DNA of 64,000 nt from contig JAHPZA010000006.1 of assembly GCA_019058445.1 (NCBI GenBank), forward strand, positions 128,001 through 192,000. Reading direction: 5' to 3'. A program made the position numbers and the translations under genes. Each line of letters starts with the position of its first letter. Position 1 is the first letter of the stretch. The notes beneath the pieces were generated by a model, which saw nothing but the letters and a program-made list of their open reading frames with translations, searched no databases and was not told where the DNA came from. This document shows positions 36,188-62,688 of this stretch, in pieces. This DNA is from Promethearchaeota archaeon (GTDB taxonomy: Archaea > Asgardarchaeota > Lokiarchaeia > Sigyniarchaeales > SOKP01).

Positions 36188-38230
36188 TTATATACTATTA
36201 CCCATTTTATAACCTCGAGCAACAGCTTCCATTACCGTTTCTGGTTTACGAGCATCTCCGATTTTCTCTACTTTAATAGTACCTAGTTGCTTGATTTCTT
36301 TATAAAGAGCATCGTTCGGTTCGACCCCGGTAGCATAATAGATATAATCTATATCACTAATTGCGTTTTCTTTACCCGAAGAGTCTGAATAATTTACATA
36401 ATTTTCGCCGATTTCAGTGACTTTTACACTTGTAAGGAATTTCACACCTAAAGCATCGCATTTATCAAGAAGTACCCATTTCGTAGTCCTTCCTAACGCA
36501 GATCCTAATTTTGGTAACATTTCAAGAACGGTAACCTTATTCCTTCCCTTATGCATCATATCTAACGCAATTTGAGGCTCTAAGGCCTTATAGAATGTAA
36601 GAAAATCAAATGCTTCACGGCTTAATGTTCCATATTTTGCAATGTATATTGCTAATTCTATACCAGTGGCTCCGCCTCCTATAATAACATTGTTCTTACC
36701 AACTGGAGCATCACCGCTTAAAGCATCATTTGCCCAATATACATTTGCTCTGTCAATACCGGGAATAGGAGGTTTTATGGGATTTGAACCAGTGGCGACA
36801 AATGCAACGTCAGGATTGAATTCTTTTACTATATCAATAGTGACATTTTGTTGGAAATGTACATTGATGCCGTATTTCTGAATCCAATAGTTATAATTAT
36901 CTATCATACGTTTAAATTCGTTTCTTCCTGGTGGAATCCAGATTATGTTTAATAACCCGCCAATTTTATCATCCTTCTCAAAAATATGAACATCATGTCC
37001 TCTAATTGCCGCTATTCTCGCAGCCTCTAATCCTCCTGCTCCTGCTCCAATAATCATAACTTTTTTCTTTTCTTTCAATGGTTTCAGTTCAGTTCGGGCT
37101 TCATTTCCCGCTCGAGCATTCCTTAAACACGTGACAGGCATCATCCTGAATACCTGGTCAAAGCATCCTTGATTGCAGCCAATACAGTTCATTATATCTC
37201 TTAATTCACCCTTTTGAGCTTTCATTGGCAGATAAGGATCAGCAATTAACCCTCTTCCAATACAAATAGCATCAGCTTTTCCGGCCATTAAAACTTGTTC
37301 GGCGAGCTCAGGGTTGTTAATTCTATTGGAAGAAAATATAGGAATAGATACACGTTTATGAATATTTTCAGCTAGGTATGTATAACATCCTTCTGGAACA
37401 TCCATTGTTAATTGTGGTGTTTTTGTTTCATGCCAACCACCTGTTACGTTGAAATAATCTAAATATTTACCTAATTCTTCTGCAATAACTACTTTTTCCT
37501 TATATGTATTGCTGCCTGGAACAAAATCATCTCCAGAAATTCGATAGCCAAGAGGGATATCGTCTACTTTAGAACGCATTAATTCAATGGTTTCAATCGG
37601 GAATCTTAAACGATTTTCAAGATCGCCCCCATATTTATCAGTTCTCTTGTTAGTTTTTGGGGAACAAAACTGATCGGTTAAATAACCAGCATTTCCGCAA
37701 ATCTCTACTGCATCGAAGCCTGCTTTCTTAGCTCTAATTGTAGCGTCGGCAAAAGCCTCTTGTTCACGCTTTATATCTTCAAGACTCATTTCCTTAGGAG
37801 TGGTCTTACTAAAATTACTATAAACTGCAGAGGGGGCAATAGGTGTTCTGCCAATTATCTGTGGGAATGCGTTTAGGCCTCAATGGTAAATCCATTTCGA
37901 GGAAGCCCCGCCATGGTATAATTGGCAACAGATCTTTACATCATCTCGAGCATTGTGTACGGCTTCAGTTAATTTCTGTAAATCAGGAATAAATTTATCG
38001 TCATCAACTGCAATCATCGATGGTAAACCCTTTGCATAAACGTCTACATAACACCCTCCTACAATTAGCATTCCAGCACCTCCCTTAGCCCTTTCAACGT
38101 AAAAATCTATCAATTTGTCAGTGATAAACCCATTTTTTGCCAAGTTGAGATGCATCGCAGGCATTATAATACGATTAGACACATCCATATCCTTTATTTT
38201 AAAAGGAGTAAATAGTTTAAAGAACTTCAT
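36188..38230 (-). CDS. NADH:flavin oxidoreductase / 2,4-dienoyl-CoA reductase (FadH-like), 670 aa after removal of a 30-nt intron; join(complement(37903..38230),complement(36188..37872))
   Basis: OYE barrel (NRIIMPAMH, ERAKGG, AGFDAVE, NKRTDKYGG), CIGCNQGC and two Rossmann motifs. Both ORF-track fragments are in one frame, separated only by a TGA inside the BHB-flanked insert. Confidence 0.9.
37873..37902 (-). other. bulge-helix-bulge (tRNA-type) intron, 30 nt, in FadH-like gene
   Basis: mRNA: GCG GGGC UU^C CUC GA AAUGG AUUUA CCAUU GAG GCCU AA^A CGC. Complete outer helix, 4-bp central helix and two 3-nt bulges; the spliced sequence reads HGGAYAFP. Confidence 0.88.
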
Positions 38231-58826: not shown

Positions 58827-59076
58827 TTGGCATCAACATTAAATTTCTAATAAATATTAATCTACATAAATGTAATTAATAGTATTCTTAGGAATTTTTA
58901 ATTTATAAATTTTAATTTTGTTTAGTCGTGAAGGAATATTCTAAAAATCTAATTGAGATAATCTTTTTTTCAATTAATAGAATAACTTCTAGAACTAAAA
59001 TAGAAAACATATCAAATTATATGTCATTTTCTATGAAATTATCTCAATAAAGAGAATAAAATAAAAAAAATAGTAA

Positions 59077-59445
59077 TTAAGTTTTAATAATGATTGTAAT
59101 TGCTCTCGTAAGACGGATAACGTCCATAACTTTTCCTTGCTCTACGATGATTTGTTCTCGACTTATTGCGTGGGTAAAATCTCCTTTTCCTTCACATATT
59201 CGTACGATAGCATTCGGATCTCCAGACATAACAATCTCTGCATTTGGGAGTGTTCCATCCACAATTTTTCCTTTCTTCTCCTTAATTTCTAAATAAAAGG
59301 GATCTTCATTCTCCAGATTAAATTGAAAAGTCATATCCCAGTTTACATCCTTGCCAGCAACGTTAGTAACAAATACCGTTTGTGCCTTAGGATTTCCATT
59401 TAAACCTTCAATAACTTTTGTTAAATTTTCTTTTGCAGCTCCCAT
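59077..59445 (-). CDS. SCP2 sterol/lipid-binding domain protein
   Basis: 122 aa; FQFNL....FYLEIK.......G....AEIVM..D.....I..G pattern; operonic with DUF35 and thiolase. Confidence 0.75.
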   Translation of the reverse strand: MGAAKENLTKVIEGLNGNPKAQTVFVTNVAGKDVNWDMTFQFNLENEDPFYLEIKEKKGKIVDGTLPNAEIVMSGDPNAIVRICEGKGDFTHAISREQIIVEQGKVMDVIRLTRAITIIIKT

Positions 59446-59447
59446 TT

Positions 59448-59951
59448 TTAAGCACCTCCCTCGTATTCTGGTTTAGCAATCCATCTTTCATACTCATCTT
59501 CAGGTACAAAAAAGAAATCCGTCATTTTACCTTCTCTGTTTTTGGAAAATACCGCTTTAACTCTTCGTCCTTTTTTAACTTTTGAGGGAACTAGATTTTC
59601 TGAAAATATTCCTTGAAATAAAGCAGTGTCAGCTCCATCTAATTTTATAAAACCTATAGAATAGGGTACCGATTTTATAAACGCAGAAGTTGTATACCAA
59701 ACGATAGTGCTAACCTCAATCGTTCCTGTTTGTTTCATTTCAATCCATTCGGTAGGCGAATAACATTCTGAGCAATTAATTCTTGGAGGCATCCATATTT
59801 TCCCGCAATTTGAATTAGTGCATTTAGTTCCTAACAACTTTTTATTGTTCATGACCTCAATAAAGAACTTAGATTGTCCTCCCATCGTGTATTTATAGTT
59901 AATTTTAATTATATCCCTTATTTCATGTGATTGAAAATCTTGCTTGCTCAT
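59448..59951 (-). CDS. DUF35 Zn-ribbon/OB-fold protein
   Basis: GTKC....C..PPRINCSEC and KLDGAD; ATGA overlap with the thiolase stop. Confidence 0.9.
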   Translation of the reverse strand: MSKQDFQSHEIRDIIKINYKYTMGGQSKFFIEVMNNKKLLGTKCTNSNCGKIWMPPRINCSECYSPTEWIEMKQTGTIEVSTIVWYTTSAFIKSVPYSIGFIKLDGADTALFQGIFSENLVPSKVKKGRRVKAVFSKNREGKMTDFFFVPEDEYERWIAKPEYEGGA

Positions 59952-61275
59952 GGTTGTTTCAATCCCTCCTCATTCGTCATTACAATAATCGCAGCATATG
60001 CTGCTCCAGGACCTCCAATTGAGTGCGCTATAGCCCTGCCTTTTTCAATTGTTACTTGGTGCTTACCAGCATCTTCTCGAAGTTGTAGTGCTGCTTCTCC
60101 TGTGCTCATAATCCCTGTAGCACCTACAGCGTGACCGCATCCAATCAATCCTCCTGATGGGCAACATGGTACTTCACCATTAATCCATGGCCCTTCTCCT
60201 GGTTTTTCAAAGCTATTTTCAATCCAAGGACCTCCTTCTCCAAAAGGAACAAATCCCAATTCTTCATACGATATAACCTCTTGCCCGCTAAATGCATCAT
60301 GCAGTTCTGCTAAGTCAACTTGTTGCTTTATTTTATTATAATCAAGTCCTGCCATTTTATAAGCTACTTTAGCTGCATTAATATTTGAATATAATCTTCC
60401 CATATCTTCTCTATTACCTATAAAACAGTCAGTATTCGCCGCACCTACACCCGTAATCCAAATTGGTTTTTCAATACCTAATTCCTTAACTTTTTCTTCT
60501 GGTGCTAGAATTAAGGCCGCTGATGCTTCTGAGTAAAGACAACAATCTAACATTTTAAAAGGATAACAAATAATCCTCGAATTCAAGACATCTTCAATTG
60601 TTAAATCCATCGGAGACTGCGCTTTAGGATTAAGCATTGCGTTTCCATGGTTTTTAACGCTAACAATAGCCAAAATTAACTAAACGTTAAAATTTTAAGC
60701 CATATGCTCTTCAGTTGGATTTCCAAATTCCTCAAAATGAGCATTAACCATAGAAACGTAAGAACTAGCTGCCATCATCCCCATAGGATACTCATAAGTC
60801 AAATCTGCTGAATATGCGATGGCATTGAGCACTTCTGGTGTTGTTGTACCTGTTTAAACTTATTAGGGATATCCTAATTGATTTGTTCATCGTAACAATC
60901 GTTACATTTTTCCAGACCAAGACATAGGCATAGGTCTGACAACCCAGAAGCAACTTCAGCATAAGCCATCCTTACAGTATAGCCGCCTGTAGCACCTCCT
61001 GAGGCAATCCGGGTACCTGGCTTATCATTCATCCCGATGTAACTATTAGTAAAAATATCCGGCATGAATTGCCGTTCAAACAGCTCGTTATAAATCCCAT
61101 ACACTGTTGATTCCAAGTCTTTGTGCGTAATTTGTGCTCCGTTCTTATTGGCATCGTCAAGCGCCAATTTTGTCGCGTCATAAGCCAGCTCAAAATAGGT
61201 CTTATCCAAATATCTTGCTCTAAAAGGTGTTATTCCTACACCTATTATCGCTACTTTTCTCACTTTATTTTTCAC
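59948..61275 (-). CDS. thiolase-fold protein (no canonical Cys), 422 aa after removal of two introns; join(complement(60883..61275),complement(60696..60853),complement(59948..60665))
   Basis: Exon 1 has KVAIIGVG, ASGGATGG and EK. The hidden middle exon reads TGTTTPEVLNAIAYSADLTYEYPMGMMAASSYVSMVNAHFEEFGNPTEEHMA. Exon 3 has VSVKNH, ELHDAF and GHAVGATG. Confidence 0.88.
60666..60695 (-). other. BHB-type intron, 30 nt (thiolase intron 2)
   Basis: mRNA: AU GGCU UA^A AAUUUUAAC GUUUA GUUAAUUUU GGCU AU^U GU. The unspliced frame has UAA (spanning the 5' junction) and UAG; the spliced sequence reads EHMAYVSVKNH. Confidence 0.75.
60854..60882 (-). other. BHB/BHL-type intron, 29 nt (thiolase intron 1)
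   Basis: mRNA: GAAC AA^A UCA AUUAGG AUAUC CCUAAU AA GUUU AA^A CAGG. Removal fixes both a stop and a frameshift; the spliced sequence reads DCYDEQTGTTTPEV. Confidence 0.8.
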
Positions 61276-61354
61276 TCAATATTTTTTAGATTTTTTTGAA
61301 TATATTATAGATATAGATTTAATTTGTCTTTAATCATATTTTAAAATTGTTAAT
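61190..61354. repeat. repeat copy 1: native thiolase 5' end plus upstream promoter region
   Basis: TAGGTCTTATC..AAATATCTTGCTCTAAAAGGTGTTATTCCTACACCTATTATCGCTACTTTTCTCAC ... ATATAGATTTAAT ... ATATTTTAAAATTGTTAAT. Confidence 0.85.
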
Positions 61355-61475
61355 CTTAATTTTGAATTATTAGGTTTGATTCAATAAGAATAGTATAAAT
61401 AATTTTTATATATTAACATAAGTTTTAGATTACTATGGATAATCCAGTTATTATATTTTAAAAAGAGACTTTTCT

Positions 61476-62144
61476 ATGGAAAACTCGGGTGATCAATATT
61501 CCGTTAAATATTCTGTTAAATATATTCTTATTCATTTTGGCTTAATATTAACAATAATTGTTGTTTTATATATAATAAGTGATATTTATCGATGGGGGCT
61601 GGATCCATACCAATTCTTAGGTTATGCTTTTTTATCAACTTTGGCTTTAGTTATCTTATTCGTTGGTATTTATCATATTCACGCTGAAAGAAATAAAATA
61701 GATTTCTTCGAAATTACATCCCCTAAAACTTTTATCAATATAATTTTAAGAAAAAGTTGGCTATTTGCAATTATTTGCATTCCAGTTGGAATATTTTTTA
61801 TATCAATCAATTTATTATCAAGTTTTTTATTTGGTTTCGAGCTTATTCGGTTATCATATGATCTGTGGTTCTTCATCATTTTAATTACTGGAATAATGGA
61901 ATTAATAAACGGTTGTCTTATATTAAAATTCAAGTCGTTCAATGTTAATTTAAATATTATTGCTTATTTATTGAATATATTAACATTGCTTTGGTACCTT
62001 ATTATATGTGGTTTTGGGATGCTATTTTATTCATTATTAGTATTTTTTCATTTCTTTTTTGTAGTACTGATTTATCAATTTATATTTAGTGTTTTGAAAA
62101 TTCTCAAAAATAAGGATCTTCTTAATAATTTTTCATTATTATAA
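61476..62144 (+). CDS. multi-pass membrane protein; in-frame zinc ribbon lies just past the stop (to 62228)
   Basis: About six TM helices. After TAA at 62142 the frame continues ICKNCGYKSLGPFEICSNCRIKQNKEN*. Confidence 0.65.
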   Translation: MENSGDQYSVKYSVKYILIHFGLILTIIVVLYIISDIYRWGLDPYQFLGYAFLSTLALVILFVGIYHIHAERNKIDFFEITSPKTFINIILRKSWLFAIICIPVGIFFISINLLSSFLFGFELIRLSYDLWFFIILITGIMELINGCLILKFKSFNVNLNIIAYLLNILTLLWYLIICGFGMLFYSLLVFFHFFFVVLIYQFIFSVLKILKNKDLLNNFSLL

Positions 62145-62257
62145 ATTTGTAAAAACTGTGGATATAAATCATTGGGTCCTTTTGAAATCTGTTCCAATTG
62201 CAGGATTAAACAAAATAAAGAAAATTAAACAAAAGTAGTAAAGTAAGATAAATCATT

Positions 62258-62418
62258 TCAAATTAGGTCTTATCTAAATATCTTGCTCTAAAAGGTGTTA
62301 TTCCTACACCTATTATCGCTACTTTTCTCACGTTTTTTCACTTAATTTTATTCGTATTTTTTTATATATTATAAATATAGATTTAATGTTTATTTGCTAA
62401 TATTTTAAAATTGTTAAT
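62258..62418. repeat. repeat copy 2: near-identical orphan copy of thiolase 5' end plus promoter
   Basis: About 74 nt nearly identical to 61190-61263, followed by a diverged promoter block. Confidence 0.85.
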
Positions 62419-62688
62419 ATTTCCTCAAATGATGGTTTATTAATTATAAGTAGAAATTTAGAACGATTGGAATAAAATGTAAATTATGAATAATCCGCGT
62501 TTTAATTTGTCTTGAATTGTATTTCAAAATGTTAAAATGTCTTAAAGTATGAATTTCAAATAAGTAAAAATCTTATTTTATATAACTAAATGTTTAATAA
62601 TAGCAAAATAGATAAGAATAAATATAAATGCACAAAAAAATTGTTCTTTCTAAATTGCTACTAAGAGAAATTACGATCAGTAAAAGAT

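What the first reader, a model, noticed from the sequence alone, without database searches (positions are those of the whole stretch)
60854..60882. Frameshifting 29-nt intron (relaxed BHB/BHL) in thiolase-like gene
The central helix is GAAC/GUUU, with bulges AAA and AAA and an inner hairpin AUUAGG/CCUAAU. The exon-exon helix is displaced (UAC/GUA beyond an internal loop), so this is a bulge-helix-loop-like motif. The insert contains UAG and shifts the frame, so readthrough cannot explain it. Canonical cutting gives GAA CAA|ACA GGT (DEQTGTTTPEVL) and opens a 158-nt middle exon missed by the ORF track. Relaxed motifs are known substrates of heteromeric archaeal endonucleases, which predicts the EndA type in this organism (inference).
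Basis: partly seen in the sequence, partly recalled or inferred. Interest (0 to 1): 0.88.

Follow-up and report, generated by a model that had tools for sequence, protein, structure and literature searches.

The report
Spliced mini-intron in Asgard thiolase gene
A 29-base insert that breaks a thiolase gene of an Asgard (Loki-type) archaeon is very probably a tiny intron cut out of the messenger RNA by the enzyme that normally splices tRNAs, which matters because such introns were known in the coding region of only one archaeal gene.

Summary
On the minus strand, bases 60882-60854 (29 nt) interrupt a thiolase gene, carry a TAG and shift the frame. Removing exactly these bases gives CNDCYDEQ|TGTTTPEVL, identical to intact orthologs. 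A second insert (60695-60666, 30 nt) bounds the 158-nt middle exon.

The interpretation, a relaxed tRNA-type (bulge-helix-bulge) intron, is supported by comparison rather than by folding energy.
- Thiolase orthologs carry 10 independent families of 29-35 nt inserts. An eleventh lies in another gene of the window.
- Ten of the 11 obey one rule: the exon ends in a 4-nt strand plus 2 nt, and the intron ends in the complementary 4 nt plus 2 nt.
- In the homologous intron of a metagenome relative, the helix GAAC/GUUU becomes GAGC/GCUU. A synonymous exon base covaries with the intron.
- Against a congener that shares the intron, dN/dS is 0.03. The intron differs at 2 of 29 bases while 64% of synonymous sites differ.
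- The genome has RtcB ligase and a non-catalytic EndA subunit. Congeners add a catalytic subunit with the broad-specificity loop.

No RNA data exist. This scan had already reported such introns elsewhere in this genome; I re-verified gyrB and EF-2.

The parts
60883..61275 (-). Exon 1 of the thiolase-family gene (start GTG at 61275 or 61263), ending ...GAT GAA CAA
   Evidence: ORF and Pfam Thiolase_N. Colinear with orthologs up to CNDCYDEQ.
60854..60882 (-). Intron 1, 29 nt, the finding. It shifts the frame and carries TAG. It comprises the third base of bulge 1, an imperfect intron helix with hairpin 60878-60862, helix strand GUUU 60859-60856, and the first two bases of bulge 2.
   Evidence: Exactly absent in L001-L003 and in 13 intact orthologs. 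Homologous introns in G002 (2 differences) and L133/L134 (30 nt, perfect 9-bp helix).
60885..60888 (-). Exon strand GAAC of the 4-bp central helix. It pairs with GUUU at 60856-60859. The flanking 3-nt bulges are AAA 60882-60884 and AAA 60853-60855.
   Evidence: It is the only register with 4/4 pairs that keeps the product. It covaries as GAGC/GCUU in L133.
60696..60853 (-). Exon 2, 158 nt, reading TGTTTPEVL...NPTEEHMA plus the first two bases of a Tyr codon
   Evidence: Frame 3 translation. Alignment to orthologs.
60666..60695 (-). Intron 2, 30 nt, in frame, with TAA and TAG. Central helix GGCU (60701-60698) / GGCU (60671-60668), bulges UA|A and AU|U, intron hairpin.
   Evidence: This register gives MAYVSVKNH, as in G002, L006 and L009, which lack the intron. 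Homologs in L001-3, G008 and L133 have 92% of cells paired.
59948..60665 (-). Exon 3 (Thiolase_C_1 domain) to the stop codon
   Evidence: The spliced gene gives one open frame of 420 codons.

Best explanation
The 29 bases are a tRNA-type intron inside an mRNA. After transcription, the exon bases GAAC pair with the intron bases GUUU, leaving a 3-base AAA bulge on each strand. The archaeal splicing endonuclease EndA cuts after the second base of each bulge. Here EndA is inferred to be a heterotetramer of a catalytic subunit with the broad-specificity loop and a non-catalytic subunit. RtcB ligase joins the exons to give ...GAA CAA|ACA GGT..., and the thiolase is translated. The same happens at the 30-nt intron 158 nt downstream.

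Shown: the exact extra 29 nt, the geometry, its recurrence in independent inserts, covariation, purifying selection on exons and intron, and the presence of the non-catalytic EndA subunit and of RtcB.

Inferred: that cleavage and ligation occur in the cell, and that EndA is the enzyme.
For: 1. Colinearity. Removing 60882-60854 restores DEQ|TGTTTPEVL, as in nine intact orthologs. Relatives lack precisely these bases. The spliced gene reads 420 codons without a stop.

2. One rule for many inserts. The rule is: exon ends in H(4)+2 nt, intron ends in H'(4)+2 nt, in the register that keeps the protein. It is met by 10 of 11 independent insert families. These sit in thiolase orthologs at reference nt 29, 378, 381, 444, 457, 534, 540, 918 and 921, and in the window's flavin reductase-like gene. 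Chance is 2.6% per register, P about 1e-9. The first intron base is A in 10 of 11.

3. Covariation.
- GAAC/GUUU (window, G002) becomes GAGC/GCUU (L133). The exon change is a synonymous Glu codon change.
- A hairpin pair changes A-U to U-A.
- 97% of cells are paired, against 8-62% when the partner is slid.
- Synonymous exon changes stay paired at two other sites: GAU-G/CGUU, GAU-G/CAUU and GAC-G/CGUU; UAC-G and UAU-G with CGUA.

4. Selection. Between the window and G002, both carrying the intron, dN/dS is 0.028 with pS 0.64. The intron differs at 2 of 29 bases (P = 1e-10 under the synonymous rate).

5. Independent assemblies carry it (G002, L133, L134), so it is not an assembly error.

6. Machinery.
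- RtcB is present at 574 bits.
- The assembly's only EndA paralog lacks the catalytic Tyr and His.
- Congeners have this paralog plus a catalytic one with Tyr, His, Lys and the loop lysine.
- ARAGORN finds only 23 tRNA genes, 19 of them with called introns. This fits the heavily interrupted Asgard tRNA genes described in preprint 10.64898/2026.10.13.758758.

7. Single-copy gyrB and an EF-2 paralog of the same genome carry 30-nt stop-containing inserts that obey the same rule. Such inserts must therefore be removed for the cell to live.
Against: - No transcript, junction read or cleavage assay exists.
- The fold is not favoured thermodynamically. The minimum-energy structure pairs AAAU with GUUU instead of GAAC, and z is only -0.6 to -0.8.
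- This copy is the most degenerate of its family. It has a C-A mismatch and a 1-nt deletion in the intron helix relative to L133, and no conserved exon-exon helix. Splicing could therefore be inefficient.
- The catalytic EndA subunit and its 3.4-kb neighbourhood were not found in this 92.6%-complete assembly.
- Covariation rests on three distinct sequences, and 63 of 500 shuffles do as well.
- One family (reference nt 441) has only 3 of 4 helix pairs.
- A genome-wide motif-plus-ORF census showed no excess over controls.
Confidence: 0.85

Rival explanations
1. The intron class is real, but this particular copy has decayed. It has a mismatch and a deletion in the intron-side helix and no outer helix. 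It would be spliced poorly or not at all, so this thiolase paralog is silenced, or is throttled at the splicing step.
For: Its intron-side helix has only 1 abutting pair, against 3 in G002 and 9 in L133. The fold is not favoured. The genome holds at least four other thiolase paralogs.
Against: The exons are intact over 420 codons, with dN/dS 0.03. G002 keeps nearly the same intron. Enzymes with the broad-specificity loop cut HBh' motifs (PMC5829648).
Confidence: 0.07
2. Translational bypassing (ribosome hopping, as in phage T4 gene 60 or yeast mitochondrial byps). The ribosome takes off before the insert and lands after it, with no RNA cutting.
For: Insert 2 has GCT followed by TAA at its start and GCT at its end, which looks like a take-off/landing pair. 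Insert sizes (29-35 nt) and hairpins resemble byps (own knowledge).
Against: Matching take-off and landing codons are absent at insert 1 (CAA vs TAA) and at most other inserts (G005, G023, L001). Hopping at insert 2 would give MAIVSV, whereas the closest intron-less alleles read MAYVSV, as the endonuclease register predicts. Hopping does not explain the 4-bp helix rule or the exon-intron covariation.
Confidence: 0.03
3. A pseudogene, or a neutral insertion scar in a dying gene.
For: It has a frameshift plus stop codons, and other thiolase paralogs exist.
Against: dN/dS is 0.028 across a divergence with saturated synonymous sites, in two lineages that share the insert. The insert is far better conserved than synonymous sites. 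There are no other lesions. The same kind of insert sits in single-copy gyrB. The insert is not a repeated element in the genome.
Confidence: 0.02
4. The insert is removed at the RNA level by some machinery other than EndA/RtcB, or at the DNA level in a subpopulation of cells.
For: No enzyme assay exists. The catalytic EndA subunit is not in the assembly.
Against: The 4-bp helix with 3-nt bulges, cut after the second bulge base, is the specific signature of EndA substrates. It predicts the right junction at 10 of 11 insert families. Intron-less reads would have produced intron-less assemblies of the same strain, and none was seen.
Confidence: 0.03

Closest known systems
cbf5 pre-mRNA intron of Crenarchaeota (Desulfurococcales, Sulfolobales; Watanabe 2002; Yokobori 2009, PMC2738675)
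   Same: A short intron inside the coding region of an archaeal protein gene. It often has a relaxed cleavage motif, occurs in organisms with a hetero-oligomeric EndA, and was gained and lost among relatives.
   Different: The gene is a thiolase, not cbf5, and the lineage is Asgard. There are two introns in this gene, and at least ten independent intron families at nine positions among close orthologs. Introns are polymorphic within a genus. Splicing of cbf5 was shown experimentally; here it is not.
Non-canonical (HBh'-type) tRNA introns of Crenarchaeota and Asgard archaea
   Same: The same geometry (4-bp helix, 3-nt bulges, intron-side helix, weak or absent exon-side helix), the same size range, and the same presumed enzymes: (alpha-beta)2 EndA with the L1 loop (PMC5829648) and RtcB.
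   Different: The host RNA is an mRNA. The exon half of the motif is therefore built from codons, and its variable bases are synonymous sites that covary with the intron.
BHB intron in the 5' UTR of Haloferax volcanii HVO_1309 mRNA (PMC7714728)
   Same: An mRNA is a substrate of the splicing endonuclease.
   Different: That intron lies in the untranslated leader and does not interrupt the reading frame. Haloferax has a homodimeric EndA.
Translational bypass elements (T4 gene 60; Magnusiomyces mitochondrial byps)
   Same: Short, hairpin-bearing, stop-containing inserts in coding sequence that do not appear in the protein.
   Different: Those are skipped by the ribosome and need matching take-off and landing codons. 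These are absent here at most sites, and the helix-bulge rule is not a feature of byps.

Membership tests
Archaeal bulge-helix-bulge (EndA-spliced) intron | A 4-bp central helix formed by one exon strand and one intron strand | tested here: met
   GAAC (60888-60885) pairs with GUUU (60859-60856). It is the only product-preserving register with 4/4 pairs. A compensatory G-C pair occurs in L133.
Archaeal bulge-helix-bulge (EndA-spliced) intron | Two 3-nt bulges on opposite strands at the two ends of the helix, with cuts after the second bulge base giving a functional product | tested here: met
   Both bulges are AAA. The predicted junction CAA|ACA equals the ortholog sequence. The same cut rule gives the right protein in 10 of 11 insert families.
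Archaeal bulge-helix-bulge (EndA-spliced) intron | Intron-side helix h' stacked on the central helix | tested here: inconclusive
   In the window there is one abutting U-A pair, a C-A mismatch, a 1-nt bulge, then 6 bp. G002 has 3 abutting pairs and L133 has a perfect 9 bp.
Archaeal bulge-helix-bulge (EndA-spliced) intron | Exon-exon outer helix h (required for the strict hBHBh' form) | tested here: not met
   No pairs abut bulge 2. The displaced UAC/GUA is not kept in G002 or L133. The motif is therefore the relaxed HBh' form, not the strict one.
Archaeal bulge-helix-bulge (EndA-spliced) intron | Cleavage by EndA and ligation by RtcB in the cell | not testable with these tools
   No RNA data. 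RtcB is present, and so is an EndA paralog.
Organisms with broad-specificity (alpha-beta)2 EndA | Two distinct EndA paralogs: one catalytic (Tyr, His, Lys) with the L1/CSL loop lysine, and one structural | tested here: inconclusive
   Own assembly: only the paralog lacking Tyr and His. No trace of the catalytic one or of its neighbours, at 92.6% completeness. Congeners: 8 of 9 carry two or more EndA matches. In the congener examined (G002) the catalytic one aligns to A. pernix alpha with the loop KPR kept.
Translational bypass element | Identical take-off and landing codons flanking the gap | tested here: not met
   CAA vs TAA at insert 1. No match at the G005, G023 or L001 inserts. Only insert 2 has GCT...GCT, and it then predicts a residue (I) not seen in the closest alleles.

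The most novel reading that the evidence does not exclude
This family of Asgard (Loki-type) archaea maintains a dynamic population of endonuclease-spliced mini-introns in ordinary and essential protein genes. The introns are gained repeatedly at hot spots only 3-6 nt apart, differ between species of one genus, and are held by selection so that synonymous exon bases co-evolve with the intron. That would be protein-enzyme mRNA splicing as a routine step of gene expression in the closest prokaryotic relatives of eukaryotes, possibly with a function of its own, given that intron sequence is far more conserved than the motif needs.
Probability: 0.6. Interest if true: 0.9.

Novelty: new variant of a known kind. 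Interest (0 to 1): 0.8.

Why it matters
In the papers I could search, endonuclease-spliced introns in archaeal mRNAs amount to cbf5 in Crenarchaeota and one 5' UTR in Haloferax (PMC7714728 says so in 2020). No paper in the searched library reports them in Asgard protein genes.

Here one gene has two such introns, and its orthologs have at least ten independent intron families. Single-copy gyrB in the same genome has one too.

If transcripts confirm splicing, three things follow.
- Gene callers systematically truncate or split Asgard genes.
- mRNA splicing by a protein enzyme is common in the lineage nearest to eukaryotes.
- Intron gain, loss and hot-spot reuse can be studied in a prokaryote, with exon-intron covariation as a readout.

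Tried and rejected
1. Genome-wide census. I searched for the helix-bulge geometry combined with joining two open frames of at least 40-60 codons, against off-register controls. There was no excess (55370 vs about 55700; with an intron helix of 6 bp or more, 282 vs 272). Adjacent genes give millions of frame-compatible combinations, and multi-intron genes with short exons, like this one, are excluded. The census is uninformative and is not evidence against the class.

2. Thermodynamic folding as a test of the motif. It is not discriminating.

3. My first register for insert 2 (GCT|TAA...GGCT|ATT, product MAIVSV, which also fits hopping). I rejected it. No 4-bp helix fits it, and the closest intron-less alleles read MAYVSV.

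4. Repeated-element or MITE idea. The intron sequences have no other copies in the genome.

5. Rfam. No known RNA family lies in 59000-62600.

6. Search for the catalytic EndA subunit in the assembly with Pfam, TIGRFAM, phmmer and tblastn. It was not found.

7. Stop-codon recoding. It cannot rescue a 29-nt frameshifting insert.

Full report
**What is there.** The window lies in a 4.6-Mb, 31% G+C genome. Its thiolase orthologs are annotated as Promethearchaeota or Hermodarchaeota, that is Asgard archaea. On the minus strand a thiolase-family gene (61275..59948) is followed by genes for an OB-fold protein (Pfam OB_ChsH2_C) and an SCP2 protein. The thiolase is in three pieces. An alignment with nine intact orthologs of 413-419 aa, 87-94% identical, shows nothing missing and nothing added at the protein level. 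Piece 1 ends CNDCYDEQ and piece 2 begins TGTTTPEVL. It has TAG in frame and shifts the frame.

**Is it an artefact or a dead gene?** It is neither.
- Three JGI metagenome contigs (L001-L003) share the 30-nt insert. They lack the 29-nt insert to the base and carry a different 34-nt insert 60 nt further on.
- Among 40 related genomes, 13 have an intact ortholog and G002, G005, G008, G017 and G023 have interrupted ones. G002, of the same genus, has the same 29-nt insert with two differences.
- After removing the inserts, the window's gene reads 420 codons without a stop.
- Against G002, dN/dS is 0.028 while 64% of synonymous sites differ. Both lineages have therefore kept the protein under strong selection since they inherited the insert.
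- The insert itself differs at 2 of 29 bases. That is far fewer than the roughly 18 expected at the synonymous rate (P = 1e-10).
- The insert has no other copy in the genome.

**What removes it?** I listed every insert of 10 nt or more in orthologs from relatives and from 80 metagenome loci. Inside the coding region there are ten independent families of 29-35 nt. They lie at reference positions 29, 378, 381 (this finding), 441, 444, 457, 534, 540 (insert 2), 918 and 921. Another gene of the window carries an eleventh, at 37873-37902.

I then asked one question of each family. In the register that keeps the protein colinear, do the four exon bases at -6..-3 pair with the four intron bases at -6..-3? 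This is the geometry of an archaeal bulge-helix-bulge motif cut after the second base of each 3-nt bulge. Ten of the eleven families say yes, each in one product-preserving register. A random register in this gene does so 2.6% of the time, giving P of about 1e-9. The first intron base is A in 10 of 11, and bulge 1 is AAA in seven. The family at 441 has 3 of 4 pairs.

For insert 2 the rule picks 60695-60666 and predicts MAYVSVKNH. That is what the closest intron-less alleles (G002, L006, L009) read. A hopping-type reading would give MAIVSV.

**Covariation.** L133/L134 carry a 30-nt homolog of the window's intron at the same site.
- There the helix GAAC/GUUU is GAGC/GCUU. A synonymous GAA-to-GAG change in the exon is matched by U-to-C in the intron.
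- One hairpin pair is U-A instead of A-U.
- The intron-side helix is a perfect 9 bp that abuts the bulge.
- 97% of cells pair, against 8-62% when the partner is slid by 1-3 columns.
- With three sequences this is not statistically strong, since 63 of 500 shuffles do as well.
- The same behaviour recurs at two other sites. At site 378: GAU-G/CGUU, GAU-G/CAUU and GAC-G/CGUU. At site 444: UAC-G and UAU-G with CGUA.
- Insert 2 and its four homologs keep 92% of cells paired, with changes that mostly preserve pairing.

The window's copy is thus a slightly eroded member of a canonical family, with one C-A mismatch and a 1-nt deletion in the intron-side helix.

**What is not supported.**
- Folding energy does not single out the motif. 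The minimum-energy fold keeps only the 6-bp hairpin, with z of -0.6 to -0.8.

The motif is therefore the relaxed HBh' form. It has a central helix, both bulges and an intron-side helix, but no exon-side helix.

**Machinery.**
- RtcB ligase is present.
- The only EndA homolog in the assembly aligns to M. jannaschii EndA but has Phe and Ser at the positions of the catalytic Tyr and His. It is therefore a structural subunit, and the same holds for its orthologs in relatives.
- Eight of nine congeners carry at least two EndA matches, this paralog and a better-scoring one. In G002 and G009 the latter has Tyr, His and Lys. The G002 copy is closest to the A. pernix alpha subunit and keeps the loop KPR that confers broad specificity (PMC5829648, which also reports (alpha-beta)2 EndA with this loop in Asgard archaea).
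- The catalytic gene and its 3.4-kb neighbourhood have no counterpart in this 92.6%-complete assembly. I read that as an assembly hole.
- ARAGORN finds only 23 tRNA genes, 19 with called introns. This fits the heavily interrupted Asgard tRNA genes described in preprint 10.64898/2026.10.13.758758.

**Context in the genome.** Earlier notes of this scan reported similar inserts elsewhere in this genome. I re-tested two.
- Single-copy gyrB has a 30-nt insert with two TAA and the helix GGCG/CGCU. Its removal restores LEGVRKRPAMYIG.
- An EF-2 paralog has a 30-nt insert with the helix ACAG/CUGU and a 9-bp intron helix.

An essential single-copy gene with such an insert means the cell must remove them.

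**Rivals.**
- Translational bypassing fails the take-off/landing test at most sites and predicts the wrong residue at insert 2.
- A pseudogene is excluded by selection.
- A repeated mobile element is excluded by uniqueness.
- Recoding cannot rescue a frameshift.
- The live caveat is efficiency. This eroded copy may be spliced poorly.

**Literature.** In the searched library, mRNA substrates of the archaeal endonuclease are cbf5 (coding region, Crenarchaeota; PMC2738675) and the 5' UTR of Haloferax HVO_1309 (PMC7714728). I found no report of such introns in Asgard protein genes.

**Verdict.** The intron is a new variant of a known kind. My confidence that it is an EndA-type spliced intron is 0.85, pending RNA evidence.

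Noticed in passing
window 62248-62421 vs 61180-61357: The first ~30 codons of the thiolase gene plus its upstream region are duplicated about 1066 nt upstream (91 nt at 91% identity, then 77 nt at 81%). Between the copies lies a 222-aa multi-pass membrane ORF (61476-62144, + strand) with no Pfam match.
   Followed up: partly
window 37873-37902 (minus strand): A third mini-intron in the window. It is 30 nt and lies in a gene split into 38230..37880 and 37789..36188, which I take to be flavin-reductase-like (I ran no family search on it). Helix GGGC/GCCU, bulges UU|C and AA|A, 5-bp intron helix. The product reads QLYHGGAYAFPQ.
   Followed up: partly
orthologous loci L018-L022, L067-L134 (reference CDS from L005): Independent introns sit in pairs 3-6 nt apart (378/381, 441/444, 534/540, 918/921). 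Seven of ten families fall within nt 376-540 of a 1257-nt gene. These may be hot spots, intron sliding or repeated insertion; this is unresolved.
   Followed up: partly
window 60854-60882 and 60666-60695 vs G002, L001, G008: Intron sequences are far more conserved than synonymous sites: 2/29, 2/30 and 4/30 differences at pS 0.58-0.64. That is more than the helix-bulge motif alone seems to require.
   Followed up: partly
G000:C9:770310-770918 (L004/L035): The only EndA gene in the assembly is a non-catalytic paralog (Tyr to Phe, His to Ser). The catalytic paralog present in congeners, and its neighbours, are absent from the assembly.
   Followed up: yes
G000:C9:606358-608376 and G000:C10:682100-684277: Single-copy gyrB and an EF-2 paralog each carry a 30-nt stop-containing insert that obeys the same helix-bulge rule.
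   Followed up: yes
whole genome G000: ARAGORN finds only 23 tRNA genes in 4.6 Mb, 19 with called introns, including odd calls (SeC, Pyl, 'Stop'). Most tRNA genes are probably too interrupted to be recognised.
   Followed up: no
G020:C101:17523-18695, G017:C65:26161-27297, G021:C74:3535-4701, G011:C105:25529-26698: Paralogous thiolase genes of relatives each contain two in-frame TAA codons, so they probably carry mini-introns of the same kind.
   Followed up: no
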